This document shows, piece by piece, positions 13,616 to 34,959 of a stretch of 64,000 nt of DNA. The translations under genes were made by a program, and so were the position numbers. Within the stretch, counting starts at the first letter, position 1; each line of letters starts with the position of its first letter. This stretch comes from a virus: the IMG/VR virus record IMGVR_UViG_3300026544_000002, positions 1-64,000 of that record. The stretch is one strand, 5' to 3'. The notes under the pieces were generated by a model. It was not told the origin of the DNA. It was given only the letters and a program-made list of their open reading frames with translations, and did no database searches.

Positions 13616-13926
13616 AAGGTTTGATAATGAATAAGAAAATTATTTATGTTTTGACAGTATATTATAAATATAGTATGTTGGACATGTCTTTTGATTTTAG
13701 AATCAAAGGAAATATTACATATCGGAATAAAAAATATGCTATTGATGCAATGAAAACACATGATGGTCCTGAATTTCATTATACATATTTTGAAAGACCA
13801 AGTGAAATTATGATAGAAATATTACGTTCAATATCATCAAAATTGTTATCTGTTATAGATGAAGATTTGTATAGAAACGGACCTGTTCAAAATAAGGAGT
13901 ATACTGGTGAAATTGAAATTGAATAA
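13612..13926 (+). CDS. hypothetical protein
   Basis: ATGA-coupled ORF. Confidence 0.55.
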   Translation: MKGLIMNKKIIYVLTVYYKYSMLDMSFDFRIKGNITYRNKKYAIDAMKTHDGPEFHYTYFERPSEIMIEILRSISSKLLSVIDEDLYRNGPVQNKEYTGEIEIE

Positions 13927-15832: not shown

Positions 15833-16168
15833 ATGGCTGAACAATTAGAAAATGCAATTGATTTTTTAGAAATGCTAACAGATGATGAATATGTAAAAGT
15901 ATTTTTTGTAAAAAAGAATGGTGAAAAAAGATTGATGAAAGCAACTCTTAATTTCAAACATATTCCAAAAGAATTTCATCCGAAGGGGTTTAATTTAAAA
16001 GGTATTTTGAAAAAGATCAAATCATCAAATGTATTATCAGTATTTGATTTAGAAAAAATGGCATGGCGATCAATAAAATTAGATACTGTTATTAGTGTTG
16101 TTTCGGCTAAAAATAAAGTGCTTGAATTTAAAATAAGTATGAATCAGTTTCATAATATCGGAGTCTAG
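15833..16168 (+). CDS. WYL_2/Sm-like SH3 beta-barrel protein (DUF2693-like)
   Basis: VFFVKKNGEKRLMKATL…VFDLEKMAWRSI pattern. Confidence 0.75.
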   Translation: MAEQLENAIDFLEMLTDDEYVKVFFVKKNGEKRLMKATLNFKHIPKEFHPKGFNLKGILKKIKSSNVLSVFDLEKMAWRSIKLDTVISVVSAKNKVLEFKISMNQFHNIGV

Positions 16169-19291: not shown

Positions 19292-21625
19292 ATGGAAACT
19301 ATTCATTTAGAATCTTCGTTAGAATTACCAGCTACATATGTATTATCGAATCTCATAGTGAACACACAACCTGAAAGAATTATGAAATATAAATATGTAT
19401 ATGGAACATTTGATGATATTTATTGGACAAAAATGTTTATTGTGCCAATGGGGGTAAGATCATTTTTATTTGATACTTCTTTTGAAAATCATTTTAAAGA
19501 TGTTTTGTATTCTACAAAAGTGACTATAAATAATAGATCATATAATAAAATAAAATTGTTGATGCCAGATTTATTATTTGTTGTAAAATTACATCCTTAT
19601 GGATCAAATGAAATTGCTCAATTGTATGTACAACAAATAAATGGACCTTTTGATGTTAACAATATTTCAAATTTGTCAAATGCCCCATTGCCAAATTTAT
19701 ATGATTCTGGACAAGTATGTCAATCTGGAAAAATTTCTATCATGAAAATGTATAAAAACAAATCATATGTGTTGAAAAATATGTTTGATATATCAGAATA
19801 TTATATTGATATGTTTTTGAATTCTGCATTTAATAATGATTTGACCAGTACTTACCAATATTCAATTATAAAAAAATTAGGATTTCTATCAATTACTGAT
19901 TTTTTAAATATAGCAAGTGACCCTAAAAAATATAATATATTAAAGAAGTTATATATCAAAAATCATCTAGATGACCATAGTTCTTTAAGAGAAACATTTA
20001 AAGCATCTTTTTTAAATAATAAAAATAAAGGAGTGTGTAAGTCATTATTTGAAAATAATTTTATAAAATCAAATGATAATGATATGGTTACAAGATTAAT
20101 TATAAATAATGATTCTTTTATAAACAGTATCAGAATTAATGATTATATAAAATATGATAATGAAATTGTAAAAGTATTATCATTTGGAGAAAATGTTACA
20201 AATAGACAAGTTTTTATGAGTTCGTCAAATTATGAAGAAGGTCATTATATAAAATATATGACAGACTCTTATAGAATTGGAACAATTCATTTTTCAGAAA
20301 TATTGGAAAAAGTTGAATTAGATTCAATAGAAGATGTTGATGAAAAAGATTATCCAATTGATATTAAAAACAAATTCATAAGAAGTTATAAAACAGAAAA
20401 TCTTCATTTAATAGTTGGAATCGTAAAAACTATTATGAATAATGACTATTTTTATAAAATTAAAAGAGGGATAGATTCCGTTGATTTTGTCAAATTTAAT
20501 ATCGAACGACCTCGTGATATATATAAAATAGTAGAATTGGGATTACCCGATGTTTTAAATAACGAATGTTACAGAAGTAAATATGTTTATGGTGGGGAAA
20601 ATGCTCATATAATGTCTATTGATACAAATAAAACATATTCTTTTGATTCTATAAAAGATCGTTTGATTGAAGTATCTAATAGTTTTATAACAATGTTAAA
20701 CGAAGATGAAACAGAAATCGAAGAGTTGAATACAAATTATTTGGTTAAAAAAGATATATATGAGAATCATTTGAACATGGATACTTCTGATATATCTATT
20801 ATTATCGACATGGATAATTCTGTTATTCCATTGCATGATAATAATTTGAAATTTAAATCAGATAGAGAAAACTCTTTGTATGGATTAGATATTGATGCTT
20901 CATTATATATAAGAGAAAATATCGATGAATATTTAGAAAAATTAGTTGCTACATGGAATAAAAATGGTGAAGCAAAAAATATCAAATATTGGGATAGAGA
21001 AAAAGGTAATTACGCAATAATGGATTTGGTATTAAAGAAAGATCAATTAAGATTGCCTATTGATATCAATGATCAATCATTTTGTAGTAAATATTCGATT
21101 GAAGATTTTTATTATGATAATGATGTAACATCAATATTTGTAAATGTCAAAAATTTGGAAAATAAAGATGAAGAAATTTATGGGTTAACTTTGATAAAAA
21201 TTTTAGAATTTTATAAAAATAATTCAAATGAACCAGTGTCTTATTTTAAATCAGATATAGAAAATAAAGATAATAGATATATTAATAAATATGTTAGTAT
21301 TAATAAAAAAGTACAATTCAATAGTGTAAAATGTGAAATTTCAAAAGCATTTAAAGTATTTCAAATAATAGATACTGATTTTACATCATCTGTTAGATTT
21401 AATAGATTTTTTACTTCTGATAATATTGTCATATGTATCAATAAAGAAATTGATCCTTTTGAAAAAATATTTGAAATAAGAGAAGCCTCTGAATTTACTG
21501 ATCATAGAAATGTTGAAATAATAATGACATCTTCGTATCAGGCATATAATTATGTTCCTCGTGATACATATATTGCTAATTTTCTAATGAATCCTAGATA
21601 CAACCAAGTTTATCTTGGTATATAA
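19292..21625 (+). CDS. prokaryotic E2 family D (PRTRC-B-like) domain fused to ~580 aa of unknown sequence
   Basis: MPDLLFVV…APLPNLYDSGQVCQSG…FLNSAFNNDL fits the E2-D pattern with candidate catalytic Cys; operon with JAB, E1 and Ubl. Confidence 0.7.
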   Translation: METIHLESSLELPATYVLSNLIVNTQPERIMKYKYVYGTFDDIYWTKMFIVPMGVRSFLFDTSFENHFKDVLYSTKVTINNRSYNKIKLLMPDLLFVVKLHPYGSNEIAQLYVQQINGPFDVNNISNLSNAPLPNLYDSGQVCQSGKISIMKMYKNKSYVLKNMFDISEYYIDMFLNSAFNNDLTSTYQYSIIKKLGFLSITDFLNIASDPKKYNILKKLYIKNHLDDHSSLRETFKASFLNNKNKGVCKSLFENNFIKSNDNDMVTRLIINNDSFINSIRINDYIKYDNEIVKVLSFGENVTNRQVFMSSSNYEEGHYIKYMTDSYRIGTIHFSEILEKVELDSIEDVDEKDYPIDIKNKFIRSYKTENLHLIVGIVKTIMNNDYFYKIKRGIDSVDFVKFNIERPRDIYKIVELGLPDVLNNECYRSKYVYGGENAHIMSIDTNKTYSFDSIKDRLIEVSNSFITMLNEDETEIEELNTNYLVKKDIYENHLNMDTSDISIIIDMDNSVIPLHDNNLKFKSDRENSLYGLDIDASLYIRENIDEYLEKLVATWNKNGEAKNIKYWDREKGNYAIMDLVLKKDQLRLPIDINDQSFCSKYSIEDFYYDNDVTSIFVNVKNLENKDEEIYGLTLIKILEFYKNNSNEPVSYFKSDIENKDNRYINKYVSINKKVQFNSVKCEISKAFKVFQIIDTDFTSSVRFNRFFTSDNIVICINKEIDPFEKIFEIREASEFTDHRNVEIIMTSSYQAYNYVPRDTYIANFLMNPRYNQVYLGI

Positions 21626-21644: not shown

Positions 21645-23702
21645 ATGATTTTGAACCAAGAAGAAATATTTGATGATGGGTATATATGTGTTAAAAATCC
21701 AAATTTTACAATAACTCGTACTAATTTCTTAAAAAATTTATTAAATTATACAACCAATGAAATAAATAATGAGAATTGTATATGGTTTAGAAATAATGGA
21801 ATAATGTGGCATACTTTATATACAATAGAACCTGGATATAAAGAAATGATGATAAATGATAAAGAAATTATTTTATCATTGCCTCAATTAGTGATACATG
21901 TTGGAAAAAATAAGTATTCTAAATATGAAATAGATATATTTTTTCAAGATACCAATGGTAATTTAGATAATGTTTATGAATCTTTTTTACATGTAGATAA
22001 TATCGATATTGATATTGGAGAAAGTAATTATGTAAAAGAATCAACATTATTAATTAATCATATTTTACATGAATATAATTTTCAATATGATGGAAGTATT
22101 GATGAGCTATATATGATGATAAATCAGAACAATGTATTTGATAATTTTCCTATGATTGATATTAAATTATCAGATATGATAGAAATTTGGAAAAAAGAAA
22201 TAGATGAATGTATAAATTTGAATATTATTTATAATATGGTGATTAAACAAAGAAATGACTTTACCCCCATGTCTTATTATATTAAAAAGAAAATATTCAT
22301 GGGTGTATTATATGAAACAATGAAACATATTAAATTAGGAAACAAAAAATATTTGATTTATGGTATTGATTGTTATGAAAATATAAAAGATTCTATTAAT
22401 AATAATTTTAAAAATGATAAAATTTTATTATATGATTTGGAACAACGTAAGAAAGTTGCATTACCATTGAAAAGAATAATAGAATCTAAATTCAAAATGT
22501 TTGAAAATGGACATTCTATTATACCAAATAGTTCTATAAAAATAGGGAATTATATAAAATATGTAAATAGAGGTAGCGATGGTCCTGTTGCGATAACTCC
22601 TGAGAAAATAATTAATATCAGATTAGATAAAGATAACTATTCATTGATTTTGGAAACAAATCGTTTAAAACGGAATAAAGAAGTTATAACAAATAATATT
22701 TCGTATAATTTAATCGAAGAACCAAGAAATATTGATGCATTAGATATTTATCAATTAATTGGTCTTAAAGATAATAAAGAAAAATTTCCAATTTTTAAAA
22801 TAAAAGATTCTACGATTGTTTCAAAAAAAGATAATAATCAAGAAAAATATTATTTGAATGATATATGTGATTTTATTGGTTCACATTGTTTTTATAATAA
22901 AATAGAAGATTTTTATTTTGATATACTTAGTAGAAAACAATTTGTTGATATGTTAAATATTTTGAATAAAGAAATAAAAACTTTAAAAAATAATTATTAT
23001 TTTGGTTATATACCTAATAATAAAATGCTTGGAAAAAAATTATTAAAATGTGATAATTTATATATCGATGATGAAGCAGGTGTTATACACTTACAATGTG
23101 ATGATGAATATTTTAATAAAGAAATTGATGATATAAAATTAACTGATCATGAAGCTGATGTTGTTATGTTGCCTTGTGTTATCAATGATGTTCATATAGA
23201 TCCTGATGAAATCTATATTTCTCATTTAAAAAGATTTTTTAATAGAAGAATACGAATCAATGGTGTACGTATAGAAAATAATGAATTGGTTTATATGTTT
23301 ACAACAATTGATGATATGGAAAATCATACAAATACAATCCGTGATAACTATTTTTGTGGAAAACAAATTTATATAGAAGGATTGCAAATTGGTCAATATG
23401 GTAAATTAAAAGATATTGGTGCTTCATTAGGATTTAAAAAATCTTTATGGCATGGTATCAAATATTTTTATGAGAATAAAAATGGTGAAAAAATGGTATT
23501 GTTTGAAAATAATATTGCTGTTAATGTTAAATTGATTGATATTGATTATTTTAATAATACCTCTAGAAATGTAAAAAAGAGAAATATGACATTTTTGTCG
23601 AGTAATGATTTACGATCTATAAGAATGTCAACAAAAAGAAAAATAACAGATCATATTTTACACACATTTGATTCTATTGCTTGTGAAATTCATACAAATT
23701 AA
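21645..23702 (+). CDS. large hypothetical protein, probable degenerate paralog of the E2-D fusion
   Basis: N-terminal IEPGYK…LSLPQLVIHV parallels VPMGVR…LLMPDLLFVV of the upstream gene but lacks the PN…GxVC motif. Confidence 0.5.
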   Translation: MILNQEEIFDDGYICVKNPNFTITRTNFLKNLLNYTTNEINNENCIWFRNNGIMWHTLYTIEPGYKEMMINDKEIILSLPQLVIHVGKNKYSKYEIDIFFQDTNGNLDNVYESFLHVDNIDIDIGESNYVKESTLLINHILHEYNFQYDGSIDELYMMINQNNVFDNFPMIDIKLSDMIEIWKKEIDECINLNIIYNMVIKQRNDFTPMSYYIKKKIFMGVLYETMKHIKLGNKKYLIYGIDCYENIKDSINNNFKNDKILLYDLEQRKKVALPLKRIIESKFKMFENGHSIIPNSSIKIGNYIKYVNRGSDGPVAITPEKIINIRLDKDNYSLILETNRLKRNKEVITNNISYNLIEEPRNIDALDIYQLIGLKDNKEKFPIFKIKDSTIVSKKDNNQEKYYLNDICDFIGSHCFYNKIEDFYFDILSRKQFVDMLNILNKEIKTLKNNYYFGYIPNNKMLGKKLLKCDNLYIDDEAGVIHLQCDDEYFNKEIDDIKLTDHEADVVMLPCVINDVHIDPDEIYISHLKRFFNRRIRINGVRIENNELVYMFTTIDDMENHTNTIRDNYFCGKQIYIEGLQIGQYGKLKDIGASLGFKKSLWHGIKYFYENKNGEKMVLFENNIAVNVKLIDIDYFNNTSRNVKKRNMTFLSSNDLRSIRMSTKRKITDHILHTFDSIACEIHTN

Positions 23703-23728: not shown

Positions 23729-24781
23729 ATGTCTAAAAAGATTTTTGTATTAGATAAGGATTTGGATTTGTCAGAAGTTAAAAAATCTAATCATTGTTAT
23801 ATTATTGCAAAGAATGGTGTATTCTTTAAAGATAATCAACATAACATTGAAACATGTACTAAAATTGATAGTATTGAAGGATTGTCTTCTTTGCAACCAT
23901 ATATTAAATGGAGATTTCCAAAAATCACCAAAAGACAATTTAACATGGTTATTCAATTTTTCAGAAAAGTTTATACAAAGCATAAATCAGAATGTATGGT
24001 ATTGATAGGTTGGGATAGAAAGAAAAAAGATATTATATTATTTGCTCCTGATTCACAAGAAGTGTCAGGGGCGAGTATCAAATATCAAATGACTAATATC
24101 CCAGGTGTTGCTTTAATTGGTTCGATTCATTCACATGCCAGTATGTCAGCGTTTCATTCTGGAGTTGATATTGCTGATGAAATGAATTTTGATGGTTTGC
24201 ATATTACAATTGGAAAATTTTCTGATAAAACAAATACTTTTCAAATTTCATCTCAATTAACTTCTGGTAAAATGAGAGAAACTATTGATCATACTCAAAT
24301 AATTGAAGATATCTATATTAATTATAATGTTAAATTAGAAGGAAAAGGTTTGAAAGATTGTAGCAATGACAGCATCATAGAAGCTATCATGAATAATAAA
24401 TGTGATATTAAATATGATGGTGAAATGTGTATTGATGAAAAAGAATTAGATAAAGAAGATAAAGAAATTATCGAAAGTTGGTTAGAAACAGTTGTCCCCC
24501 CACGGACATATATTTATGGTAAAAATTGGCACAGTGGTTATGGATATAACAAGCAACAGAGTTTCACACCTATTAAGAAAGATGTACCAGCAGTTGAACA
24601 TCCAATAGGAAGCAATGATTCTTTGTTACAAGTACAAGATGAAATTGATTTAGCTACAATGTATGGAGTAGAAGAATTAGATGAATTGTTAATTGATGAT
24701 AATTATGATTTAGATATTATGGATAATGCTAATATTTTTAATAAAGGTAATAAAAATAACGCTTCAAAAGTGGAGATGTAA
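23729..24781 (+). CDS. JAB/JAMM metalloprotease (PRTRC-A/Prok-JAB type)
   Basis: YIIAKNGVF, SECMVL (catalytic E), GSIHSHASMSAFHSGVDIADE (HxH-x7-S-xx-D), GLHITIG; acidic tail. Confidence 0.9.
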   Translation: MSKKIFVLDKDLDLSEVKKSNHCYIIAKNGVFFKDNQHNIETCTKIDSIEGLSSLQPYIKWRFPKITKRQFNMVIQFFRKVYTKHKSECMVLIGWDRKKKDIILFAPDSQEVSGASIKYQMTNIPGVALIGSIHSHASMSAFHSGVDIADEMNFDGLHITIGKFSDKTNTFQISSQLTSGKMRETIDHTQIIEDIYINYNVKLEGKGLKDCSNDSIIEAIMNNKCDIKYDGEMCIDEKELDKEDKEIIESWLETVVPPRTYIYGKNWHSGYGYNKQQSFTPIKKDVPAVEHPIGSNDSLLQVQDEIDLATMYGVEELDELLIDDNYDLDIMDNANIFNKGNKNNASKVEM

Positions 24782-25491
24782 TGAAAACAAATATTTATTT
24801 AGTAGGCATGGGAGGAATTGGTTCACAATTATGTGAACCAATTTGTCGATTTGTTAATTATTTAGAAAATAAATCTGATTATTGTATTACTTTCATTGAT
24901 GGTGATGAATATGAATCTTCTAATCAAACAAGACAAACTATTGAATTAGCTGATATTGGACAAAACAAAGCAGTTAGTCAATATAGTAAAATGTATAATT
25001 TATTTCCAAATTTAGAAATAAATGCAAATGCTATATATATCAATAATCAGAATATCAAAGATTGTTTTAATAAACCAGATGAAAACACGATTATTCTATC
25101 TGGTGTGGATAATAACAAAACAAGAAATGTTATTCAACAATATTGTCTTGCATTAAAAAATGTTCTGTTACTATCAGGAGGTAATGAATATATTGATGGT
25201 GATGTGCAAATTTATGCAAGAAAACAAGGAGTTGATTTGACTCCCCCGATTTGGAAATGGAATCCTAATATTAAAAATCCAAAAGACCGGTCGCCGGAGG
25301 AGATTGGTTGTGATGAATTAGTAGAATCCACACCTCAGTTGATTTTTACAAATGGTATGGTTTCCGCTTGTATGTGTATGGCATTTTATAATTATTATAA
25401 AATGTTTGATACTGATGTTTCCATTGACAAAAGTGTAGTAATGTTTGATATCCCTGAATTATCAGTTGTATCAAAGATGAGAAATCTGTAG
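24781..25491 (+). CDS. ThiF/E1-like ubiquitin-like-protein activating enzyme
   Basis: VGMGGIGS, IDGDEYESSNQTRQ, GQNKA, GVDNNKTR, SGGNE, candidate catalytic Cys in PEEIGCDE…PQLIFTN. Confidence 0.9.
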   Translation: MKTNIYLVGMGGIGSQLCEPICRFVNYLENKSDYCITFIDGDEYESSNQTRQTIELADIGQNKAVSQYSKMYNLFPNLEINANAIYINNQNIKDCFNKPDENTIILSGVDNNKTRNVIQQYCLALKNVLLLSGGNEYIDGDVQIYARKQGVDLTPPIWKWNPNIKNPKDRSPEEIGCDELVESTPQLIFTNGMVSACMCMAFYNYYKMFDTDVSIDKSVVMFDIPELSVVSKMRNL

Positions 25492-25543
25492 TAAAATTAA
25501 CTAGTTGATTTAAAAAAGAAACAAATTAAAGGAGAACAAAAAC

Positions 25544-26152
25544 ATGTCTGATTTCAATTTTGATAGTGTTGTTGCTGTAGCTGATTTGCAAGAAATGACT
25601 GTAAAAGACCTTCGGGGTATTTGTGCTGATCTAGGATTGGCTCGGTATAGCAAGGCACCAAAACCAAATTTGGTTAAAATGATTTCTGAATATTATTCAG
25701 ATGCGTTAATGGAAATGACTGCAAAAGATTTACGATCTATTTGTGTCGATCGTGGTATTACTGGAGTTGCTAAAACAACAAAACCTAATTTGATTGATTT
25801 GCTTTTAAAATCTGTTCAGCCAGTAAATGCACCAGAAGAAATTTCGTCAGAAGATATTGTTGATATTTCTTCGGATGATAATGAAAATAATGAAGATTCC
25901 GATTCTTCATCTGGAACTATTACCGTTATTAACGGTGCTCGCTCTCGGACGATTCCCTTTGAAGAAGGGAAAACAGTGTGGGATATCCATCAACAGATGG
26001 CTAATGAAATGGGGATTGCCGCACATCCAAGTTTTACAGTAAATGATACAGATGCACCAAATAATGTTGTTATCCGTGAAGGTGACACTATTGAATTCTT
26101 TAAAGTAAGTGGGACTAAAGGAATCATAGGTACACTTTTGAAAAAATGTTAA
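25544..26152 (+). CDS. ubiquitin-like protein precursor: two Rho-N/SAP-like helical repeats, acidic linker, beta-grasp domain ending GTKG plus 9-aa extension
   Basis: Repeats LQEMTVKDLRGICADLGL and LMEMTAKDLRSICVDRGI; Ubl ITVING…GKTV…TVND…IREGDTIEFFKVSGTKG|IIGTLLKKC. Confidence 0.8.
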   Translation: MSDFNFDSVVAVADLQEMTVKDLRGICADLGLARYSKAPKPNLVKMISEYYSDALMEMTAKDLRSICVDRGITGVAKTTKPNLIDLLLKSVQPVNAPEEISSEDIVDISSDDNENNEDSDSSSGTITVINGARSRTIPFEEGKTVWDIHQQMANEMGIAAHPSFTVNDTDAPNNVVIREGDTIEFFKVSGTKGIIGTLLKKC

Positions 26153-26175: not shown

Positions 26176-26219
26176 AAGAATGTCTCGTATATGTTTATCG
26201 TATACGAGACATTCTTTTT
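26176..26219 (+). terminator. intrinsic terminator closing the first Ubl operon
   Basis: AAGAATGTCTCGTATA-9nt-TATACGAGACATTCTT followed by TTT. Confidence 0.85.
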
Positions 26220-26610: not shown

Positions 26611-27408
26611 ATGATAGGAATAATCGGAGTGGGATCAATTGGTAAAAATTTATTAGATTCTTTAGTATCAAAACTTCCAAATGAAAAATTTATAGTTATA
26701 GATGATGATACGATTAATAAACATAATATCCAATACAACAAAAAATATATTGGATTTGAAAAAACATTAGCATGTGTCGATCAGTATAAAAATGTATCGG
26801 CAATATCAGAATATGTTAATAACGATAAATTATCAACATTAATAAAAAAATCATTAGACCAATGTTCTACTATTTTTGATTGTAGAGATACTTTTGAAAA
26901 CAGAATAACATTTGATGCTATTAAAATATTCGTCAATAAAGATAAATTAATAATTGATTTTAGAAAAAAAATTTTGTATAGGTATGATGTTGAAGGTGAA
27001 TATGTTAGTTATATAAGTGACCAATTTATAAAATCATTGATCATAACTTTTGTAAACATGTGGATAAATAAAAAATCTTGTATTGAAAAATATATTAAAA
27101 ATGAAAATGCGATTTCGATTAATCAAATTGGTTCGATTGAAGAATTATATTCTTCTGTTGCAGTAGCAAAAGATATTGAAAAAATTATAAATAATAAAAT
27201 AAAAGATATCGATACTGTCAAAGTAGATATTTTTGATGGTTTGTATAATATAGTGAATAAAACATATGATTTAAAAGAGTATAAACCATCTGATATCGTC
27301 AGTATAATTAATAGAGAAACTCATTGGTTTCCAGCTATGTATTTTATGCCAGAAACAATAAAAAATATCATGTATCTAAGAATCTTTAATCAAACAGGAG
27401 GTGCGTGA
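26611..27408 (+). CDS. second, divergent ThiF/E1-like protein ending in …QTGGA
   Basis: IGIIGVGSIG, VIDDDTINKHNI, IGFEK, IFDCRD Rossmann motifs; lacks the NxxRQ arginine. Confidence 0.7.
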   Translation: MIGIIGVGSIGKNLLDSLVSKLPNEKFIVIDDDTINKHNIQYNKKYIGFEKTLACVDQYKNVSAISEYVNNDKLSTLIKKSLDQCSTIFDCRDTFENRITFDAIKIFVNKDKLIIDFRKKILYRYDVEGEYVSYISDQFIKSLIITFVNMWINKKSCIEKYIKNENAISINQIGSIEELYSSVAVAKDIEKIINNKIKDIDTVKVDIFDGLYNIVNKTYDLKEYKPSDIVSIINRETHWFPAMYFMPETIKNIMYLRIFNQTGGA

Positions 27409-27429: not shown

Positions 27430-28107
27430 ATGCCACATAATATTGATACACCAACCGTTTCAAATCATATTGTTTTACGAGAAGACAATTCATTGATATT
27501 GATTGATTGTAATATTGTTCCACGATACATAGAATGTTTTGGATTACGATTGATGATAAGTAAGATACATGATGAAACATGTATCATAAAAAAATTATTG
27601 ATTAAATGTATTCCAAGAAATAAAGAAAACCAACAAGCAGAAATAACTAACGTGTGGCTGATAGATGCATTGCATCCAAATGCTACTATTATTCAAAAAG
27701 ATTTTAATTTTGATAATAATGTGTTAGATGAATTATCTGATTATACAACAAATCCAATAAAACAATCATTTGATTTATTTAAATTTTGCAAAGATCCATA
27801 TTTATCGTATGCAGGAGATAAAATTAATATAAGTATTTTAAAATTAGTGAATGATCTATCATTCTGGAATTTTGATTCTGGATATTGGAATGATATGTCA
27901 AAAATTTCTATTGACATTGGTGATGCAGATGAAGTATATGATCATCAAAGTAAAAAAATGATATCTGCAAAAAAAGCGAAAAGAAGATTACGATTAGGAA
28001 GATGTATGAATTTGATTCAAAAACCTTTTTCGTTATTAACGAATGAGAATGAAAAATATTGTTTAGATGAATCGATGCGAATTTTTAAAAATATTAAATT
28101 GGTATAA
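27430..28107 (+). CDS. putative E2/UBC-fold protein
   Basis: LHPNA…(insertion)…FKFC followed by a helix and LSFWNFDSGY; directly after a ThiF-like gene. Confidence 0.45.
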   Translation: MPHNIDTPTVSNHIVLREDNSLILIDCNIVPRYIECFGLRLMISKIHDETCIIKKLLIKCIPRNKENQQAEITNVWLIDALHPNATIIQKDFNFDNNVLDELSDYTTNPIKQSFDLFKFCKDPYLSYAGDKINISILKLVNDLSFWNFDSGYWNDMSKISIDIGDADEVYDHQSKKMISAKKAKRRLRLGRCMNLIQKPFSLLTNENEKYCLDESMRIFKNIKLV

Positions 28108-28230: not shown

Positions 28231-31005
28231 ATGCCAAAATTACTGAATAGAAATTTCGCCAAAGATTTACCTGAAATAACAACATCTAATTATTTTGAAA
28301 AGAAAAAAAGATATCATAAAGATGGTTTGTTTTCTGAACATATATTTGGATTGTCAAACAATTATACTTGTCGATGTGGTATTTATCATGGCAAACATGC
28401 CGAAGGACAAAAAAGCAAATGTGGTGGGAAATTTTGTACTGATTTAGAAATTACAAACAGCATAAAACGACGAAGACAATTTGCAAAAATCACTTTACCA
28501 ATACCTTTGCTGAATAGAACATATTTGGCATTAGTAAAAAGAACTTTACCTGTAACGGAAAAAGAATTATTTGATGATGTAAATAAATTGATGAAATCTC
28601 ATAGGACAATTCTATTAAAATATGATGATGAATATATGATAAAATCATTAGATGAAGAAGAAAATATAAATGAATTGAAATATGAATTTTGGCAAATGCA
28701 TGAAGCAGTTGAAAAATTAATTAGACATGTTATAACCATTTATATTACAATTGATCCAACAAATGAAGATTATAAAATGTTGCTTAAACAATTAGAAGAA
28801 CAATTGTTTATGTATGAAGTAATTGTTATACCTCCTTCAATGAGACCTATTTCTCAAATAAATCCAACAACAAACTCCGTTGATCAGTTAAACCAATTCT
28901 ATTATCAATTATTAGTAAAAAAAGAAATTATGGCAGCTGGTGATATTGATGTAACCCGTCATATGAAAATTTATCAGCAATATTATATGCAATTTCAAAA
29001 AACAGTTGATGATATGTTTGATTATGTAATAAATGCTGTTTCTAAAAAAGAAGGATTGATTCGTGGGAATATTTTAGGAAAACGAATTGATTTTTCAGGA
29101 AGAGCTGTTATTGCGCCATCACCGACAATTGAATTAGATGAATGCATATTACCATATCGAATGGTATTAGAATTATATAAAATTCCTATTGCTAAGAAAT
29201 TGATTGAAAAAGGATATTTTAAATTTATCCATTCTGCACTAGAACGAGTCGAATCATGTCAATTTTATAATGATCCACAATTGATTGAAGTTTGTAGATC
29301 GGTTATTGGTGAAGATGTATGTTTACTTAATAGACAACCTAGTCTTCATAAATTGAGTTTGGTTGCATTTAAAATAAAAGTTGAACCTGTTGATGTTATT
29401 TATATTCATCCAATGGTTTGTCGTGGTTTCAATGCTGATTTTGATGGCGATGCAATGGCAGTATATCTTCCTGTTACAGAAGAATCACAAGCAGAAGCTA
29501 AATCACAAGCATTATCAACAAATTGTTTGTTAAATCCAACTGATATGAAAATAACTACGACTCCTAGCCAAGAAATGGTTTTAGGATTGTATATGTTAAG
29601 TACAATTTCTAAAGGAAAATATGCAAAGAAAGTTTTATATAAAGGTGAAGAAATAACAGAAGGAATGAAAATAATTAATGAATGTTTTCCAGATGATTTT
29701 CCTTTGATTAACAAACCAGTAACATCTGATGTTATTCGACAATATATTTATAATTCGTTTAATTTATATAATGGTGATATTAAAAATATTTTAGATAATA
29801 TCAAAACTGTTGGATTTGTTTATGCTACTTTGATTGGACATACGATTTCTTTACAAGGAATGTTATCACAAACTAAATTACGTGATGAAATATATGCACT
29901 TCCAAAAGTAACTGATCAAATTAAAGAAATAACAGGTGATAGAGTTTCTAAATTTTTGAAAGAACATTTTAAATATACTGATATGATAGAATCAGGAGCA
30001 AGAGGAAGTTGGGATCAAGCTCGACAATTAATTCTTTCTCGTGGATTTATTTCTAACTTCAAAGGAAATATATTAACAACTCCTATTGAAAATTCATTTG
30101 TTGATGGATTAACACCAATGGAATTTTTTACATCATCTTTTGGTTGTAGGAAAGGATTATTAGATGTTGCTGTTAAAACATCATTTTCTGGATATCTTTT
30201 TAGAAAATTTACATTTGCTTGTTCGAATTTGATGTTAGATCATGATAATGAAGATTGTGGAACAGATCAATATGTTTCTATTTATATTTCTGATATCAAA
30301 AAAGCACAATCTATAAATGGAAGATGGGTTACATTAGAACCTAATGATCATGAATCATTATTCATGGTAGAACCGTCTAATATGAAAAGAATCATTGGAA
30401 AAAAGATTTTCATGAGAAGTCCAATGTATTGCAAAACTGAAAAAATTTGTAAAAAATGTTATGGTGAATTATATAGATATTTAAACAAAAGTCGATTTAT
30501 TGGTTCTATTGCTGCTCAAGCATTAGGAGAATCAAATACACAAATGGTTTTGAGAACATTTCATACATCTGGTGTTGCCTCTATTGATGAAAATTCTATC
30601 AACGAATCAGGTGAAATGGAACAAAAAGATATTGTTGGTGCATTAGCATTAATTTCTAAATTAGTTCACATTTATGAAAAAGATAAAAATGCGGATGATT
30701 TGGTGTCTGATCTTTTTGAAATTTATTCTAAAGATAGATTCTTTATGCATGTTCATTTTGAATGTTTGGTTTCACAATTAATGTGGTATAACGATAAACA
30801 GAAATGGAGAACTGTAGAAAATCGTCATGAAAAACCATACCAGATGAAATCAATTGTAGCGATTCCGTCATTAGAAAGTTGGATAATGGGAATTTCTTTT
30901 TCAAATACTAAAAAAGAATTAATTAATAGTATGTTACAATCTGGAATATATTCAGGGGGTGTCATAGATAAAATAATGTGCGGTGTTTCATATAAAAACA
31001 TTTAA
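28231..31005 (+). CDS. phage multisubunit RNA polymerase, beta'-like subunit (unsplit)
   Basis: DGLFSEHIFG, Zn-finger CRCG…C…C, GNILGKRIDFSGRAVI, LNRQPSLH, catalytic NADFDGD, bridge helix RKGLLDVAVKTSFSGYLFRK, trigger loop QMVLRTFH. Confidence 0.96.
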   Translation: MPKLLNRNFAKDLPEITTSNYFEKKKRYHKDGLFSEHIFGLSNNYTCRCGIYHGKHAEGQKSKCGGKFCTDLEITNSIKRRRQFAKITLPIPLLNRTYLALVKRTLPVTEKELFDDVNKLMKSHRTILLKYDDEYMIKSLDEEENINELKYEFWQMHEAVEKLIRHVITIYITIDPTNEDYKMLLKQLEEQLFMYEVIVIPPSMRPISQINPTTNSVDQLNQFYYQLLVKKEIMAAGDIDVTRHMKIYQQYYMQFQKTVDDMFDYVINAVSKKEGLIRGNILGKRIDFSGRAVIAPSPTIELDECILPYRMVLELYKIPIAKKLIEKGYFKFIHSALERVESCQFYNDPQLIEVCRSVIGEDVCLLNRQPSLHKLSLVAFKIKVEPVDVIYIHPMVCRGFNADFDGDAMAVYLPVTEESQAEAKSQALSTNCLLNPTDMKITTTPSQEMVLGLYMLSTISKGKYAKKVLYKGEEITEGMKIINECFPDDFPLINKPVTSDVIRQYIYNSFNLYNGDIKNILDNIKTVGFVYATLIGHTISLQGMLSQTKLRDEIYALPKVTDQIKEITGDRVSKFLKEHFKYTDMIESGARGSWDQARQLILSRGFISNFKGNILTTPIENSFVDGLTPMEFFTSSFGCRKGLLDVAVKTSFSGYLFRKFTFACSNLMLDHDNEDCGTDQYVSIYISDIKKAQSINGRWVTLEPNDHESLFMVEPSNMKRIIGKKIFMRSPMYCKTEKICKKCYGELYRYLNKSRFIGSIAAQALGESNTQMVLRTFHTSGVASIDENSINESGEMEQKDIVGALALISKLVHIYEKDKNADDLVSDLFEIYSKDRFFMHVHFECLVSQLMWYNDKQKWRTVENRHEKPYQMKSIVAIPSLESWIMGISFSNTKKELINSMLQSGIYSGGVIDKIMCGVSYKNI

Positions 31006-31025
31006 AAGAAAAAGGAATATAATAC

Positions 31026-34000
31026 ATGTATCCGAATAATCCAACATTGCGCTTACCAGATAGAAATATATTTAATATACGACAAGAAAATTATAATCAA
31101 TTAATGGAAGATATTGAAGAAATGTTAAAAGTTCCATTAAAATATGGATTTGAAATTGAAAAATTTGAAAAAGTAAACACTCGATACCACGGAAATAATT
31201 TAATAAATACAGTAAAAGAAAATATTGTACTTAAATTATCAAAGGGTGGAAAAATAATTGATCTATCAATGCAGATTCCAAAATTAATTGATGGACAGTG
31301 GTTCATAATAAATAAAAGAAAGAAAATTCCAAAATATCAATTATATGATATTCCTATTTTAACATTCAATACTCCAAAAAATAAAGAAATACGAATACAA
31401 ACAAATATTGGTAGAATTTCTGTATTTTGGAAACATAAAAAGAAAAATAAATTTGATTTCTTTGTTACATTGTCAGCATTTGGTAGAAGTATTCCATTTG
31501 CTATCGTGTTAAATGCTTTCTATGGACCTGATATTGTAAAAGAAAAATTTCTTTCAGATATAAATGAGAGAGATATTTTATCAAATGAAAAATTATCAGT
31601 ATTACAATTGTTACAATTAGATTTATTGAATTTAACAAATGATAAAATAACGAAAAAAGACTTTATACATAATATTGGATTAACTTTTTCTGAAAGAAAT
31701 CCTAATGACAAAAGTGCTGATTATATGTTTTCTTTAGAAAACATTCTTAACATTGATGTTATGACAAAAAGATTTATCGAAGAAGAAAATGTTATAGAAT
31801 GTTTGTTAAATATTATAGTTAATGATTTATGGATCAATGATTTAAATTATACAAATAAAAGAATCAGATGTTTTGAATATGCTGTATTACAATATTTCAT
31901 AATAAATATTTATAAATTATGTGTTAATTGTAGAAATGAAACAAAACCAAAATTTAATGTATCTAAAACAAAAATTTTAGGAGACAGCAATACTTCTGAA
32001 ATTATTCAATTTGATTTTAGTATAAATCCAATAGATCAGATTGCTCAGATTGCTCAGATTTCATTAACAGGTCCAAATGGATTCAAAAAGAAATCTGTAC
32101 CAACTAAATTAAGAGATTTAGATAGAACAATGACAGGTAAAATTTGTCCAGTTGATACTCCTGATAGAGAAAATTGTGGTGTTGTTCAAAATCTTGTACC
32201 AACTGCTAGATTTGATGATAGATTTAAATTTATTGATGATATTACAGAAAATGGTGCTATAACTTCTATTCCTATCACAATGATTCCATTTTTAGAACAC
32301 ACTGATCAGACACGCTTACAAATGGCATCTGGACAAATGAAACAATCTATTCTTTTGAAGAATTTTCATGTTCCTTTGATCTGTTCTGGTGCTGAAAAAA
32401 GTTTTTCTGAACATAGTAGTTTTTTATATAAAGCCAAAGAAGATGGTGAAGTGATTTTTATTAATAAAAATCATATGATAATTGGATATAAATCTGGTGA
32501 AGTATGTGTATATGATATTGGGGTCATCCCGATAACATCAGAAAATATGAATGTTATGATGACTGATCTGAAAAAAGGGGATAATATATCAAAAGGACAA
32601 GTAATCACATATAGTGTGTTTTGTCAAAATGAAGGTATCACAATTGGTCAAAATTTCAAAATAGCGTTCATGTCATATTATGGATATAATCATGAAGACG
32701 GAATAGTAATTTCTGATAGATTGGTCAAAGATGGTTGTCTAACATCTTTGCATTATGTTGATATGTCATTTAATATTTCTCCTACAAAAGTATTGTTAGA
32801 TTTACCAAATAATGATAGTGATAAATATTTACCACTATATCCTGTTGGAACATCTTTACAGAAAGGTGATGTATATGCCATTTTGAAAGAAATGTATTTA
32901 TTTGGTGCTATGAAAAATAATTCTTATAATATTTTTGAAGATAGTATGGAGAAAATTGCAAAATATGATTTATTAATTGAAGATATTACAATATATGCAA
33001 ATGAATGGTACACAGATTTAAAAGAATATGATAATTGGGTAAAAAGTAAAATTGATGAACAAATAAATAAAGATAATGCTATTATAAATGCTATTGTATC
33101 TAATACTGACAAAAAAGATGCGAAACGAATTATTACAGAAAATAATTTAGATTCTCATAGTCATCCTGGTAAATATAAAAACAAAGATGAATTAATTAAA
33201 GGAATTCGTATTGATATAAATGGTGTATACGAAAGACCAATTCAAATTGGTGATAAATTGGCAAATAGACATGGAAATAAAGGGGTAATAACTGTTATAA
33301 AAAAACATGATCAAATGCCACGATTACCAGATGGTTCTCATATAGACATATGTTTAAATCCAGTTGGTGTTATATCTCGTATGAATACTGGTCAGTTATT
33401 TGAATTATCTCTTAGTAAATCATTAGTTGATTTGAAAAATAATATGAAAAAAATGTTGGATGAATCTGTTGATCAGCATGATATTAAGAAATATTTTATA
33501 GATTATTTACATATAGCAGATAAAACATCTGAAAAATGGATTGTTAGTTATGTGAAAAATAATTTACCCAAAGTAATCAATCATGATTATATTGACAAAA
33601 TATATCTCATTCAGCCAATGTTTGCTTCTATTAATAACCAAGATTTGCATAAATTAATGAAATACACAGGAACAAATTTTGAAGAAAAAATATATGATCC
33701 TGTATCTGGTGAATATGTTATTAATGAAATAGCCACTGGTTATATGTATCTTATGAAATTGATTCATATAGCAGAAAAGAAATTAGCTTTTCGAAGTATT
33801 GGTATAACATCACAAAAAACTATGCAACCTGTCGCAGGTAAAGTAAATAACGGTGGTCAGAAATGTGGTGAAATGGAAAGTATTTGTTTAGTATCGAATG
33901 ATATGCCAATCAATCAACATGAATTTTATACAACAAAATCAGATTGTGTTGATGGAAAAAATAATTTTCTTAAAAAAGCAATTGGTACTGATTATCTCGA

Positions 34001-34094
34001 TTTAGAAGAAAATCCAGATATGGAATCAGAAACTTTGAAATTATTTAAGGCATATATGATGACTATAGGTCTTGATATAAATGGGGAAATATAA
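31026..34094 (+). CDS. phage multisubunit RNA polymerase, beta-like subunit (unsplit)
   Basis: ICPVDTPDRENCG, PFLEHTDQTRLQMASGQMKQS, GYNHEDGIVIS, GDKLANRHGNKGVI, SRMNTGQ, GGQKCGEME. Confidence 0.96.
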   Translation: MYPNNPTLRLPDRNIFNIRQENYNQLMEDIEEMLKVPLKYGFEIEKFEKVNTRYHGNNLINTVKENIVLKLSKGGKIIDLSMQIPKLIDGQWFIINKRKKIPKYQLYDIPILTFNTPKNKEIRIQTNIGRISVFWKHKKKNKFDFFVTLSAFGRSIPFAIVLNAFYGPDIVKEKFLSDINERDILSNEKLSVLQLLQLDLLNLTNDKITKKDFIHNIGLTFSERNPNDKSADYMFSLENILNIDVMTKRFIEEENVIECLLNIIVNDLWINDLNYTNKRIRCFEYAVLQYFIINIYKLCVNCRNETKPKFNVSKTKILGDSNTSEIIQFDFSINPIDQIAQIAQISLTGPNGFKKKSVPTKLRDLDRTMTGKICPVDTPDRENCGVVQNLVPTARFDDRFKFIDDITENGAITSIPITMIPFLEHTDQTRLQMASGQMKQSILLKNFHVPLICSGAEKSFSEHSSFLYKAKEDGEVIFINKNHMIIGYKSGEVCVYDIGVIPITSENMNVMMTDLKKGDNISKGQVITYSVFCQNEGITIGQNFKIAFMSYYGYNHEDGIVISDRLVKDGCLTSLHYVDMSFNISPTKVLLDLPNNDSDKYLPLYPVGTSLQKGDVYAILKEMYLFGAMKNNSYNIFEDSMEKIAKYDLLIEDITIYANEWYTDLKEYDNWVKSKIDEQINKDNAIINAIVSNTDKKDAKRIITENNLDSHSHPGKYKNKDELIKGIRIDINGVYERPIQIGDKLANRHGNKGVITVIKKHDQMPRLPDGSHIDICLNPVGVISRMNTGQLFELSLSKSLVDLKNNMKKMLDESVDQHDIKKYFIDYLHIADKTSEKWIVSYVKNNLPKVINHDYIDKIYLIQPMFASINNQDLHKLMKYTGTNFEEKIYDPVSGEYVINEIATGYMYLMKLIHIAEKKLAFRSIGITSQKTMQPVAGKVNNGGQKCGEMESICLVSNDMPINQHEFYTTKSDCVDGKNNFLKKAIGTDYLDLEENPDMESETLKLFKAYMMTIGLDINGEI

Positions 34095-34959
34095 AATGTT
34101 TGATGCTGATCTTCCAGATGTACAAGAAGCATACAAGCCAGAATATGAAATTTATCTACCAAAAGTGGGAGTTGAAAATATCAAACTTCCATTTAAATTA
34201 TTATTACGAAATTTAAAAAATCGAGATTTGATTGCTAATACATCGATATCAACAGATTTAGATAAAGAAAAGAAAGGTATTTCAATGTCTAGACTGTTGT
34301 TATCGATACAAGATTTATTGAATTATGGTTTGAATTGGGATATTATCAAACAATGTTTATATAATATTTCTGATGCAATTGGCAGTGCAAATAGTCATAT
34401 TAAATTTGATTTTGAATTACCGATTGATAAAATCTCACCATTATCGGGTCATATATTTCCATTATTTTATAAATGTTATTTTGAAGGATATAAACATAAT
34501 TCAAAATATACATTCAATCAATCAGTTATAGTGCAGTATTCATCATACTGTCCTTGTTCAGCTGCTCTATCTGATGATTTAATAAAAAATGGATTTTCTC
34601 AAGGATTCCCACATGCACAACGATCTTTTGTAAAAATTATTGTTGATATGGATTTACAAAATAAAAAACATATATGGTTAGAAGATATTATTGACATTGT
34701 TAATGATAATATTCATACACAACCATACCCAATTATAAAAAGAATAGATGAACAAGAATTAGCCAAAGTTGCATCAAATAACCCATTATTTGTGGAAGAT
34801 GCTATTAGAATAATTTCCTATCATTTAGAGAAATTGGTAGGAAATGGAATAAACGATTGGATTGTAAAATGTAAACATGAAGAATCTATTCATACACATG
34901 AAGCAATTGCAATTAATTTTTCAAAAGTTGTTAACGGTTTTCGTTATAACGACATTTAA
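34081..34959 (+). CDS. folE2: GTP cyclohydrolase IB (FolE2)
   Basis: DLPDVQ, KGISMSR, YCPCS, PHAQRS, KRIDE, FVEDAIR, EESIHTH. Confidence 0.92.
   Translation: MGKYKMFDADLPDVQEAYKPEYEIYLPKVGVENIKLPFKLLLRNLKNRDLIANTSISTDLDKEKKGISMSRLLLSIQDLLNYGLNWDIIKQCLYNISDAIGSANSHIKFDFELPIDKISPLSGHIFPLFYKCYFEGYKHNSKYTFNQSVIVQYSSYCPCSAALSDDLIKNGFSQGFPHAQRSFVKIIVDMDLQNKKHIWLEDIIDIVNDNIHTQPYPIIKRIDEQELAKVASNNPLFVEDAIRIISYHLEKLVGNGINDWIVKCKHEESIHTHEAIAINFSKVVNGFRYNDI

What the first reader, a model, noticed from the sequence alone, without database searches (positions are those of the whole stretch)
25544..26152. Ubl modifier carrying tandem nucleic-acid-binding-type repeats and a cleavable C-terminal cap
Seen: two LxEMTxKDLRxICxDxGx…KPNL repeats, a D/E/S-rich linker, then a Ubl whose GTKG end is masked by IIGTLLKKC. 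Established: this helix-extension-helix pattern is typical of Rho-N/SAP/HeH nucleic-acid-binding domains, and PRTRC-C-type Ubls end in GxKG. Inference: JAB must uncap the Ubl, and conjugation would covalently attach a DNA/RNA-tethering module to substrates. That would be a localisation tag rather than a degradation tag.
Basis: partly seen in the sequence, partly recalled or inferred. Interest (0 to 1): 0.82.

Follow-up and report, generated by a model that had tools for sequence, protein, structure and literature searches.

The report
Phage ubiquitin-like modifier with Rho-N domains
An uncultured jumbo phage encodes a ubiquitin-like protein with two Rho-N/SAP-type helical modules at its front and a short, non-conserved tail hiding its conserved Gly-x-Lys-Gly end, inside a JAB/E1/E2-like cassette that always sits next to the phage RNA polymerase genes; this suggests phage-run ubiquitin-like tagging, but no step has been tested biochemically.

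Summary
ORF 25544-26152 (202 aa) has two Rho_N/SAP helix-extension-helix repeats (Pfam 3.9e-12; structural match to the Rho N-terminal bundle, Z 8.3). An acidic disordered linker follows, then a confidently modelled beta-grasp Ubl ending GTKG, then a 9-residue tail.

Comparative data support the "cap" reading. In about 150 relatives K192 is invariant and G190/G193 are over 90% conserved. About two thirds stop exactly at KG. The rest carry unrelated tails of 1-15 residues, often a single Cys. Thirteen relatives are head-to-tail poly-Ubls, and one is a tandem of the whole Rho_N-Ubl unit, each unit ending GxKG.

The gene lies in a strictly syntenic cassette: E2-like giant protein, JAMM peptidase, ThiF E1, Ubl, second ThiF-like protein, HPN protein, RNAP beta' and beta. 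This order holds in all 83 related viral loci examined. A solo-Ubl version with a clear Prok-E2_D protein occurs in CPR, Planctomycetota and Lentisphaerota MAGs.

The cassette resembles PRTRC (Iyer 2006 type 6d) but fails the PRTRC curated thresholds, and the PRTRC_C model does not see this Ubl. Cleavage by JAB, conjugation, nucleic-acid binding and targets are all inferences.

The scan had already noted this Rho_N-Ubl family on another genome. New here are the doubled Rho_N module and the cap evidence. I rate it a new variant of a known kind.

The parts
25544..26152 (+). Whole gene: [Rho_N]x2 - acidic linker - beta-grasp Ubl - GTKG - 9-aa tail (P0001, 202 aa)
25530..25534 (+). AGGAG ribosome-binding site 9 nt upstream of the ATG
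   Evidence: read from the sequence
25580..25693 (+). Rho_N/SAP helix-extension-helix repeat 1 (aa 13-50)
   Evidence: Pfam Rho_N and SAP above cut-off. Model helices 20-30 and 40-57. VIA Z 8.3, rmsd 2.1 A over 48 residues to Rho residues 1-48, 1a62_A. Family profile hits Rho N-termini in PDB, E 0.002-0.005.
25700..25813 (+). Rho_N/SAP repeat 2 (aa 53-90)
   Evidence: Second Pfam Rho_N stretch. PHROG hits on aa 53-89. Model helices 60-69 and 80-90, pLDDT about 96.
25814..25909 (+). Acidic D/E/S-rich disordered linker (aa 91-122), containing the invariant D-I-S-S motif (aa 107-110, nt 25862-25873)
   Evidence: Net charge -11. pLDDT 46-59. D107, I108, S109 and S110 are invariant in 7 close relatives.
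25910..26122 (+). Beta-grasp ubiquitin-like domain (aa 123-193) ending G190-T-K192-G193 (nt 26111-26122)
   Evidence: K192 invariant and G190/G193 over 90% conserved in 58 sequences.
26123..26149 (+). Lineage-specific C-terminal tail IIGTLLKKC (aa 194-202), the putative precursor cap
   Evidence: pLDDT about 58. Absent or unrelated in relatives.
26176..26216 (+). Intrinsic-terminator-like hairpin (18-bp stem, then a T run) closing the bigA-to-Ubl transcription unit
   Evidence: A comparable hairpin follows the homolog in L124.
23729..24781 (+). JAMM/JAB metallopeptidase (350 aa), the candidate uncapping and deconjugating enzyme
   Evidence: Prok-JAB 3.8e-4 and PRTRC_A 4.9e-12, both below cut-off. 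E88, H134, H136, S144 and D147 invariant in 10 diverse homologs.
24781..25491 (+). ThiF-type E1 (236 aa)
   Evidence: ThiF 5.8e-19. G.GG.G, N..RQ, VDN..R and Cys176 are at least 90% conserved in 68 homologs.
19292..21625 (+). Giant protein 'bigA' (777 aa) with an N-terminal E2-like (Prok-E2_D-type) region and conserved Cys143
   Evidence: Weak, repeated Prok-E2_D hits in three homologs at equivalent profile positions. N135 invariant and C143 near-invariant. The cellular counterpart L105:3281-5350 hits Prok-E2_D at 9.8e-10, above cut-off.
21645..23702 (+). Paralog 'bigB' (685 aa) that lacks the conserved Cys; seen as a second copy only in the window and one other locus
26611..27408 (+). Second ThiF-like protein (E1b) with a conserved C-terminal TG[AG]A; part of the syntenic block
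27430..28107 (+). Protein with a conserved HPN motif (possible second E2-like protein); part of the syntenic block
28231..34094 (+). Phage RNA polymerase beta' (28231-31005) and beta (31026-34094), directly downstream of the cassette in all 83 related loci

Best explanation
P0001 is the modifier of a phage-encoded ubiquitin-like conjugation cassette related to PRTRC / 'type 6d' (E2-like, JAB, E1, Ubl). The cassette is a core, RNAP-linked module of a clade of uncultured jumbo phages.

The protein has three functional parts:
- Two Rho_N/SAP-type helix-extension-helix modules, which act as cargo.
- A flexible acidic linker.
- A beta-grasp domain whose conserved G-x-K-G end is the activation handle.

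In this lineage the handle is masked by a 9-residue, fast-evolving tail, so the gene product is a precursor. An endopeptidase that cuts after KG must expose Gly193. The most likely enzyme is the co-encoded JAMM peptidase, whose conserved main job is probably deconjugation. The ThiF E1 can then adenylate Gly193 and pass the Ubl, through E1 Cys176 and the E2-like Cys143 of bigA, to lysines of unknown targets. Each conjugation would then attach two HeH modules to the target.

Shown: architecture, folds, conservation of the terminus, turnover of tails, tandem precursors, intact catalytic motifs, synteny.

Inferred: cleavage, who cleaves, conjugation, what the HeH modules bind, and the targets.
For: - Domain calls and folds.
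- Terminus: K192 invariant and G190/G193 over 90% conserved.
- Share ending exactly at KG: 48 of 83 Ubl-bearing cluster representatives and 45 of 68 distinct viral homologs.
- Tails are 1-15 aa and unrelated in sequence. The window has IIGTLLKKC and L124 has TALIHP, with no DNA similarity after the Gly codon.
- Thirteen poly-Ubl proteins have 2-4 head-to-tail repeats, each ending GxKG and directly followed by the next repeat.
- L053 encodes a tandem of the complete Rho_N-Ubl unit.
- JAMM motif invariant. E1 nucleotide, Arg-finger and Cys motifs conserved. E2-like Cys conserved.
- A homologous cellular cassette has a significant Prok-E2_D protein.
- The gene order bigA-JAB-E1-Ubl-E1b-(HPN protein)-RNAP beta'-beta holds in essentially all 83 viral loci.
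- Rho_N is fused to the Ubl in 67 of 68 distinct viral homologs; the exception is cut by a contig end.
Against: - No biochemical datum exists for any member.
- JAB is retained where no cap exists, so 'JAB uncaps' is only one possible activity, and a host protease could do the trimming.
- In some bacterial Bil/Bub systems, multi-beta-grasp Ubls are not cut into monomers but act as units (PMC11601603). Tandem repeats alone therefore do not prove processing.
- The window's own ThiS hit is below cut-off (19.1 against 22.5 bits).
- The E2 assignment for the window's bigA rests on sub-threshold hits. Its AF2 model failed (pLDDT 46).
- The tail is well conserved between P0001 and P0002, so it may have a function of its own in this sub-lineage.
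Confidence: 0.62

Rival explanations
1. Same conjugation chemistry, but the HeH modules are an address rather than a payload. They would dock the free Ubl, or the E1/E2-charged Ubl, onto DNA, nascent RNA or the adjacent phage RNA polymerase, so that only chromatin- or transcription-proximal substrates are modified. Alternatively they are purely protein-binding modules. The biological output would then be the Ubl mark itself, not tethering.
For: - Strict linkage of the cassette to RNAP beta'/beta in 83 of 83 loci.
- The closest structural relative is the Rho N-terminal helix bundle. In Rho this bundle assists the OB-fold RNA site rather than binding on its own (PMC11347177).
- The HeH region of P0001 is not basic overall (net charge 0 for aa 1-90). 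The whole protein is strongly acidic.
Against: - Gene adjacency to RNAP is not evidence of interaction.
- SAP/HeH modules in many proteins do bind DNA (established knowledge of the Pfam LEM/SAP clan; not tested here).
- Individual HeH domains in the family average +1.6 net charge.
Confidence: 0.2
2. The tail is not removed. In this lineage P0001 is a non-conjugatable Ubl-domain adaptor (a decoy or scaffold) that works non-covalently, for example bridging nucleic acid and the E1/E2/JAB proteins.
For: - The tail is nearly identical in P0001 and P0002, hinting at selection on it.
- Many beta-grasp domains act as non-covalent adaptors (established knowledge).
Against: - Closest relatives at 53-67% identity lack the tail or have unrelated ones.
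- The GxKG end stays under strong constraint.
- The full set of apparently active enzymes is retained in the window.
Confidence: 0.08
3. The Ubl is a ThiS/MoaD/Urm1-like sulfur carrier. It would be thiocarboxylated at Gly193 by the E1 and brought to nucleic acid by the HeH modules for a thio-modification of phage DNA or RNA. JAB would act as in CysO/Mec-type systems.
For: - The best profile and structure matches include ThiS, MoaD and SAMP1.
- JAB plus ThiS/MoaD-like sulfur systems exist (PMC1779556).
- The phage carries nucleotide-modification genes nearby: FolE2 GTP cyclohydrolase and a radical SAM protein.
Against: - No rhodanese, cysteine desulfurase or PP-loop thiolase was found in the conserved block.
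- The block does contain an E2-like protein with a conserved Cys.
- Poly-Ubl precursors are typical of conjugation systems.
- The end is KG, not GG.
Confidence: 0.05

Closest known systems
PRTRC / Iyer-Burroughs-Aravind 'type 6d' prokaryotic operons (Ubl + JAB + E1-like + E2-like; TIGR03735-03738, Pfam Prok-E2_D, Prok-JAB)
   Same: Same four component types. The JAB matches PRTRC_A over both its N-terminal extra domain and the JAMM core. For a cellular cassette member, the best NCBIfam match of the E1 is PRTRC_ThiF. The E2-like protein matches Prok-E2_D and PRTRC_B. The function of PRTRC is itself unknown (PMC1779556).
   Different: All hits fall below the curated cut-offs, and PRTRC_C and Prok_Ub do not match the Ubl. 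No ParB-type gene was seen in the block. The E2-like domain sits in a 700-880 aa protein. The Ubl is fused to Rho_N modules. The cassette is viral and RNAP-linked, and it is followed by a second ThiF-like/HPN pair.
Bacterial Bil and Bub ubiquitination-like systems (Ubls with N-terminal extra domains; PMC11601603)
   Same: E1, E2, JAB and Ubl logic. Ubls have 1-3 beta-grasp domains and some carry N-terminal add-on domains (coiled coil, DUF1508, N/G-rich tails).
   Different: No PADLOC BilA, BilB or BilC match, and only generic E1 Rossmann similarity. Those systems are host-encoded and anti-phage or stress-related. No SAP/Rho_N cargo is reported in that paper.
Eukaryotic ubiquitin/Ubl precursors (polyubiquitin, Ub plus one extra residue, SUMO and NEDD8 pro-forms, Ub-ribosomal fusions)
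   Same: A conserved C-terminal Gly handle, variable short C-terminal extensions, and head-to-tail poly-Ubl genes that require a dedicated peptidase before E1 activation (established knowledge). The family here shows the same three signatures.
   Different: The end is G-x-K-G, not GG. Similarity is at fold level only, about 13-18% identity. Processing is unproven here.
Eukaryotic Sde2
   Same: It combines a ubiquitin-fold domain, a processing site after a Gly motif, and a SAP-type DNA-binding module.
   Different: The order is reversed: the Ubl is N-terminal and is discarded, and the SAP-bearing fragment is the product. No conjugation of the SAP module occurs.
Rho termination factor N-terminal helix bundle (Pfam Rho_N; 1a62)
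   Same: Profile match above cut-off and the best structural match.
   Different: No OB-fold RNA-binding domain or ATPase follows. Here the module is duplicated and fused to a Ubl.

Membership tests
Rho_N / SAP (HeH, LEM/SAP clan) | Match to the Pfam model above the gathering score | tested here: met
   PF07498: 46.4 bits against 24.9, with 2 stretches. PF02037: 30.2 bits against 23.9.
Rho_N / SAP (HeH, LEM/SAP clan) | Helix - extended loop - helix fold | tested here: met
   AF2 pLDDT about 96 for aa 1-90, with helices 20-30/40-57 and 60-69/80-90. Z 8.3 and rmsd 2.1 A over 48 residues to Rho residues 1-48.
Rho_N / SAP (HeH, LEM/SAP clan) | Binding of DNA or RNA | not testable with these tools
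   Charge only: aa 1-90 net 0, with a family mean of +1.6 per module. EMSA is needed.
Ubiquitin-like beta-grasp modifiers (ThiS/MoaD/Ub superfamily) | Beta-grasp fold | tested here: met
   pLDDT about 96 with a beta-beta-alpha-beta-beta order. Matches MoaD, NEDD8, Ub, SUMO, ISG15 and SAMP1.
Ubiquitin-like beta-grasp modifiers (ThiS/MoaD/Ub superfamily) | Conserved C-terminal glycine as the activation handle | tested here: met
   G193 over 90% conserved and K192 invariant. Most relatives end at this Gly.
Ubiquitin-like beta-grasp modifiers (ThiS/MoaD/Ub superfamily) | Profile match above threshold (ThiS, PF02597) | tested here: inconclusive
   Window protein: 19.1 bits against 22.5. Relatives P0017 at 40.8 bits and P0031 at 34.1 bits pass.
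Ubiquitin-like beta-grasp modifiers (ThiS/MoaD/Ub superfamily) | Covalent attachment to targets through E1/E2 | not testable with these tools
   Only the co-encoded enzymes and their conserved catalytic residues are seen.
PRTRC system (TIGR03735-TIGR03738 plus ParB) | PRTRC_C (Ubl) model match | tested here: not met
   No hit at E<=0.1 for P0001 or 15 relatives. No hit in the window's genome or in three cassette-bearing genomes at E<=1.
PRTRC system (TIGR03735-TIGR03738 plus ParB) | PRTRC_A (JAB) and PRTRC_ThiF above curated cut-off | tested here: not met
   45.8 bits against 101.8, and 47.3 bits against 144.75. The similarity is real but below family level.
PRTRC system (TIGR03735-TIGR03738 plus ParB) | PRTRC_B / Prok-E2_D E2-like protein | tested here: inconclusive
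   Window bigA: Prok-E2_D E 0.007, below cut-off. Cellular homolog L105: 38.9 bits against 25, but PRTRC_B only 23.8 bits against 131.
PRTRC system (TIGR03735-TIGR03738 plus ParB) | ParB-related protein in the cassette | tested here: not met
   None of the nine ORFs from 18944 to 28107 matches a ParB family in Pfam or NCBIfam.
Bil / CBASS-Cap2-Cap3 defence Ubl systems | Matches to BilA-D or Cap2/Cap3 models | tested here: not met
   PADLOC gives only generic E1-domain similarity (best 7.8e-8, 29 bits) and BilD at 0.0066. There is nothing for the Ubl, JAB or E2-like proteins.

The most novel reading that the evidence does not exclude
A clade of RNAP-encoding jumbo phages runs its own ubiquitin-like conjugation pathway. 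Its modifier is itself a nucleic-acid- or RNAP-binding module. Conjugation would covalently graft HeH domains onto phage or host proteins, for instance the phage polymerase or host nucleoid or transcription factors. This would relocalise them to DNA or RNA and act as a viral 'tethering tag'. Precursor capping and JAB processing would serve as an activation switch.
Probability: 0.25. Interest if true: 0.85.

Novelty: new variant of a known kind. Interest (0 to 1): 0.6.

Why it matters
Prokaryotic E1/E2/JAB/Ubl cassettes are currently known as host systems (Bil, Bub, CBASS Cap2/3, and PRTRC of unknown role). Where they have been studied, they act against phages.

Here the same logic is a conserved core module of a whole clade of large phages. 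It is wired next to their RNA polymerase genes, and the modifier carries a cargo domain.

If conjugation is real, this would be a virus-run Ubl pathway in bacteria. It would also be a natural example of a modifier that delivers a binding function rather than a degradation signal. The family offers a clean test bed: small proteins, capped and uncapped natural variants, and natural poly-precursors. These could be used to study how Ubl precursor processing and JAMM peptidases co-evolved outside eukaryotes.

Tried and rejected
I could not fetch the contigs of P0002-P0006. I used the search for related loci instead.
No in-silico test of JAB docking on the tail was possible.
- The AF2 model of the bigA N-terminal 250 aa with a 12-sequence alignment gave pLDDT 46. 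It was not used for fold search, so an E2 fold for the window's bigA is not shown structurally.
- tblastn of P0001 against 50,697 GenBank phage records found no match. The E1 finds only about 27%-identical ThiF genes in Bacillus jumbo phages, whose annotated neighbourhood shows no recognised JAB or Ubl.
- phmmer of aa 1-95 against PDB sequences found nothing. Only the family profile reaches Rho.
- A genome-contig scan with the Rho_N-Ubl alignment A5 found no relative in the species-representative genomes (pattern-limited sensitivity). The fusion was seen only on viral or metagenomic contigs.
- I tried to fetch canonical PRTRC_C proteins to check their C-termini.
- Eight literature searches found no paper describing a Rho_N/SAP-Ubl fusion or a phage-encoded E1/E2/JAB/Ubl cassette. 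The library is incomplete, so this is not proof of absence.
- Sequencing artefact or read-through as the origin of the tail was rejected, because an independent homolog has the same tail.
- The sigma-70 promoter scan was uninformative: 105 sites against 99 expected.

Full report
**What is there**

The window is the first 64 kb of a 102-kb IMG/VR virus record. CheckV estimates the record at 33% complete and it has about 26% G+C. It is therefore a fragment of a jumbo phage.

ORF 25544-26152 (+) encodes a 202-aa protein, P0001. An AGGAG site precedes it. A strong hairpin terminator at 26176-26216 follows it.

Pfam places two Rho_N stretches (E 3.9e-12) and a SAP match (3.3e-7) in aa 13-90. Both are above their gathering scores. 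A weak ThiS match (0.002, below cut-off) covers aa 131-188.

An AlphaFold2 model built on a 58-sequence family alignment has mean pLDDT 86:
- aa 1-90: helical, pLDDT about 96.
- aa 91-122: disordered.
- aa 123-190: a beta-grasp, pLDDT about 96.
- aa 191-202: low confidence.

A search without Foldseek gave the Rho N-terminal helix bundle as top hit for aa 10-57 (1a62, Z 8.3, rmsd 2.1 A over 48 residues). A long list of Ubls followed for aa 120-192: MoaD, SAMP1, Fubi, ISG15, ubiquitin and SUMO, all at Z 7-8. Foldseek agrees for the Ubl. The family profile also finds Rho N-termini in PDB by sequence (E 0.002-0.005).

**The C-terminal tail**

Seven close homologs (48-74% identity) show an invariant core and a conserved G-[TNS]-K-G. 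What follows differs:
- two stop right there;
- one has almost the window's tail (VIIGTLLEKC);
- others have TALIHP or NDI.

An exhaustive HMMER search of 1.8 billion representatives gave 107 hits. Eighty-three of the proteins in hand contain the Ubl. About 48 end exactly at KG. Seventeen carry one extra residue, nine of them Cys. The rest have unrelated tails of 2-10 residues, and one has a 67-aa Lys/Ala-rich extension.

In a 58-sequence alignment K192 is invariant. G190 and G193 are over 90% conserved.

Among 68 distinct homologs taken from viral contigs, 45 end at KG and 16 at KG-Cys. The homolog in L124 has a different tail and no DNA similarity after the Gly codon. Its terminator and downstream gene are in the same places.

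Thirteen relatives are poly-Ubls with 2-4 head-to-tail repeats. Each repeat ends GxKG and abuts the next. L053 encodes a tandem of the complete Rho_N-linker-Ubl unit.

These are the signatures of Ubl precursors that need cutting after the terminal Gly. They argue that the window's IIGTLLKKC is a lineage-specific cap. This is comparative inference, not proof. In Bil/Bub systems some triple-beta-grasp Ubls act uncut (PMC11601603).

**Surroundings**

Upstream genes:
- A 777-aa protein ('bigA') with weak Prok-E2_D similarity.
- A 685-aa paralog.
- A JAB peptidase (PRTRC_A 4.9e-12).
- A ThiF E1 (5.8e-19).

Downstream genes:
- A small ORF.
- A second ThiF-like protein.
- A 225-aa protein.
- RNAP beta' and beta.

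A scan of IMG/VR with a family alignment found 101 viral contigs, the longest 277 kb. In the 83 related viral loci examined (80 kept from this scan, plus L002-L004), the order is bigA-JAB-E1-Ubl-(small)-E1b-(HPN protein)-RNAP beta'-RNAP beta. It is essentially invariant, and deviations are contig ends.

Conservation of catalytic features:
- The JAMM residues E88, H134, H136, S144 and D147 are invariant.
- The E1 keeps its glycine loop, N..RQ, VDN..R and Cys176.
- bigA keeps N135 and Cys143, while the paralog bigB lacks the Cys.

Rho_N is fused to the Ubl in 67 of 68 distinct viral homologs. Most have one repeat. The window's sub-clade has two.

**Relatives outside phages**

A genome scan with the poly-Ubl alignment found 38 loci in MAGs of Planctomycetota, Lentisphaerota/Victivallales and CPR phyla. 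Most of the longer contigs carry JAB and E1 proteins very similar to the phage ones (E down to 1e-83 against the phage-built HMMs), next to a solo 70-75-aa Ubl. That Ubl ends G-[ETK]-K-G with tails of 0-15 aa and has no Rho_N.

In L105 the gene before JAB encodes a 689-aa protein with a significant Prok-E2_D domain (9.8e-10, above cut-off; PRTRC_B 2.4e-5). The best NCBIfam match of its E1 is PRTRC_ThiF.

The phage cassette is thus a derived member of a bacterial E2-D/JAB/E1/Ubl family. That family is a sister of PRTRC, or Iyer et al.'s type 6d (PMC1779556). It is not PRTRC proper:
- All PRTRC hits are far below curated cut-offs.
- PRTRC_C does not recognise the Ubl.
- No ParB was seen.
- PADLOC Bil and Cap models do not match.

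**How it most likely works**

See Best explanation for the full statement. In short, the protein is a precursor modifier. The tail must be cut off to expose Gly193, and the co-encoded JAMM peptidase is the obvious candidate.

JAB is kept in the two thirds of cassettes with uncapped Ubls. Its conserved role is therefore more likely deconjugation or recycling. A general ability to cut after KG would explain why tails come and go freely.

The E1, and the E2-like Cys of bigA, would then transfer the Ubl to targets. The long C-terminal part of bigA is a candidate substrate selector.

What the Rho_N modules bind is open. SAP/HeH modules often bind DNA. The Rho bundle is a positively charged helper of the RNA site (PMC11347177). 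P0001's HeH region is net neutral and the protein is very acidic. The universal adjacency to RNAP genes suggests, but does not show, a link to transcription.

**Prior knowledge and novelty**

Eight literature searches found no description of a Rho_N/SAP-Ubl fusion or of a phage-encoded complete Ubl cassette. No cultured phage in GenBank carries the protein.

The scan itself had already noted and followed up the single-Rho_N version on another genome (e1-5711969). The family is therefore not new to this project. This window adds the doubled module, the capped terminus, and the family-wide evidence on termini, poly-precursors and cellular solo-Ubl cassettes.

I class it as a new variant of a known kind (prokaryotic Ubl conjugation cassettes), with interest about 0.6.

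**Limits**

The E2 fold of bigA could not be modelled. All functional steps are inferred.

Noticed in passing
window 26611-27408: The second ThiF-like protein lacks the N..RQ Arg finger. It has a conserved C-terminal T-G-[AG]-A in 70 distinct homologs (mostly ETGAA; the window has TGGA). No second Ubl gene exists in the window, so this protein's own tail might be a handle.
   Followed up: partly
window 27430-28107: The 225-aa protein has no family match, but an HPN tripeptide is conserved in at least 90% of 59 homologs (an E2-like hallmark). It always lies between E1b and RNAP beta'.
   Followed up: partly
window 21645-23702: [quoted passage not shown] A second bigA-like copy was seen only in the window and one other locus.
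   Followed up: partly
window 25859-25873 (aa 106-110): An invariant [IVL]-D-I-S-S motif sits inside the otherwise variable acidic linker of the two-repeat subfamily. By my recollection it resembles a SUMO-interaction-type motif (hydrophobic core plus Ser/acidic run). It is absent from the one-repeat subfamily.
   Followed up: no
family-wide: A single Cys directly after the terminal KG occurs in about a quarter of viral homologs and in several MAG solo Ubls. The window's longer tail also ends in Cys. The reason is unknown.
   Followed up: no
L053:7989-8948: A 319-aa protein is a head-to-tail tandem of the whole Rho_N-linker-Ubl unit. The first unit ends ...PAGRKG and is directly followed by the second.
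   Followed up: yes
protein P0060: A Rho_N-Ubl ends ...KG and is followed by a 67-aa Lys/Ala-rich extension. This recalls ubiquitin fused to a C-terminal extension protein.
   Followed up: no
L086-L122 (e.g. L105:3281-7195, L100:7923-10912): Cassettes of E2-D-like protein, JAB, E1 and a solo Ubl ending GxKG occur in MAGs of CPR phyla, Planctomycetota and Lentisphaerota. Some MAGs hold several Ubl copies on different contigs.
   Followed up: partly
L002:5423-5785 and 6 other loci: A separate small protein with a single Rho_N-like module and a long acidic/Pro-rich tail lies just upstream of bigA in seven related phage loci. No counterpart exists in the window.
   Followed up: no
window 34081-34959 and 13859-14926: A FolE2-type GTP cyclohydrolase I (2.5e-59) lies right after RNAP beta, and a radical SAM protein lies upstream. 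They could be parts of a nucleotide or DNA-modification pathway.
   Followed up: no
window 16546-18837 and 15833-16168: A RecD2-type helicase (AAA_19/AAA_30, HHH_RecD2, SH3_13) and a WYL_2 Sm-like protein lie upstream of the cassette. A WYL_2-like homolog also precedes the cassette in L002 and L004.
   Followed up: no
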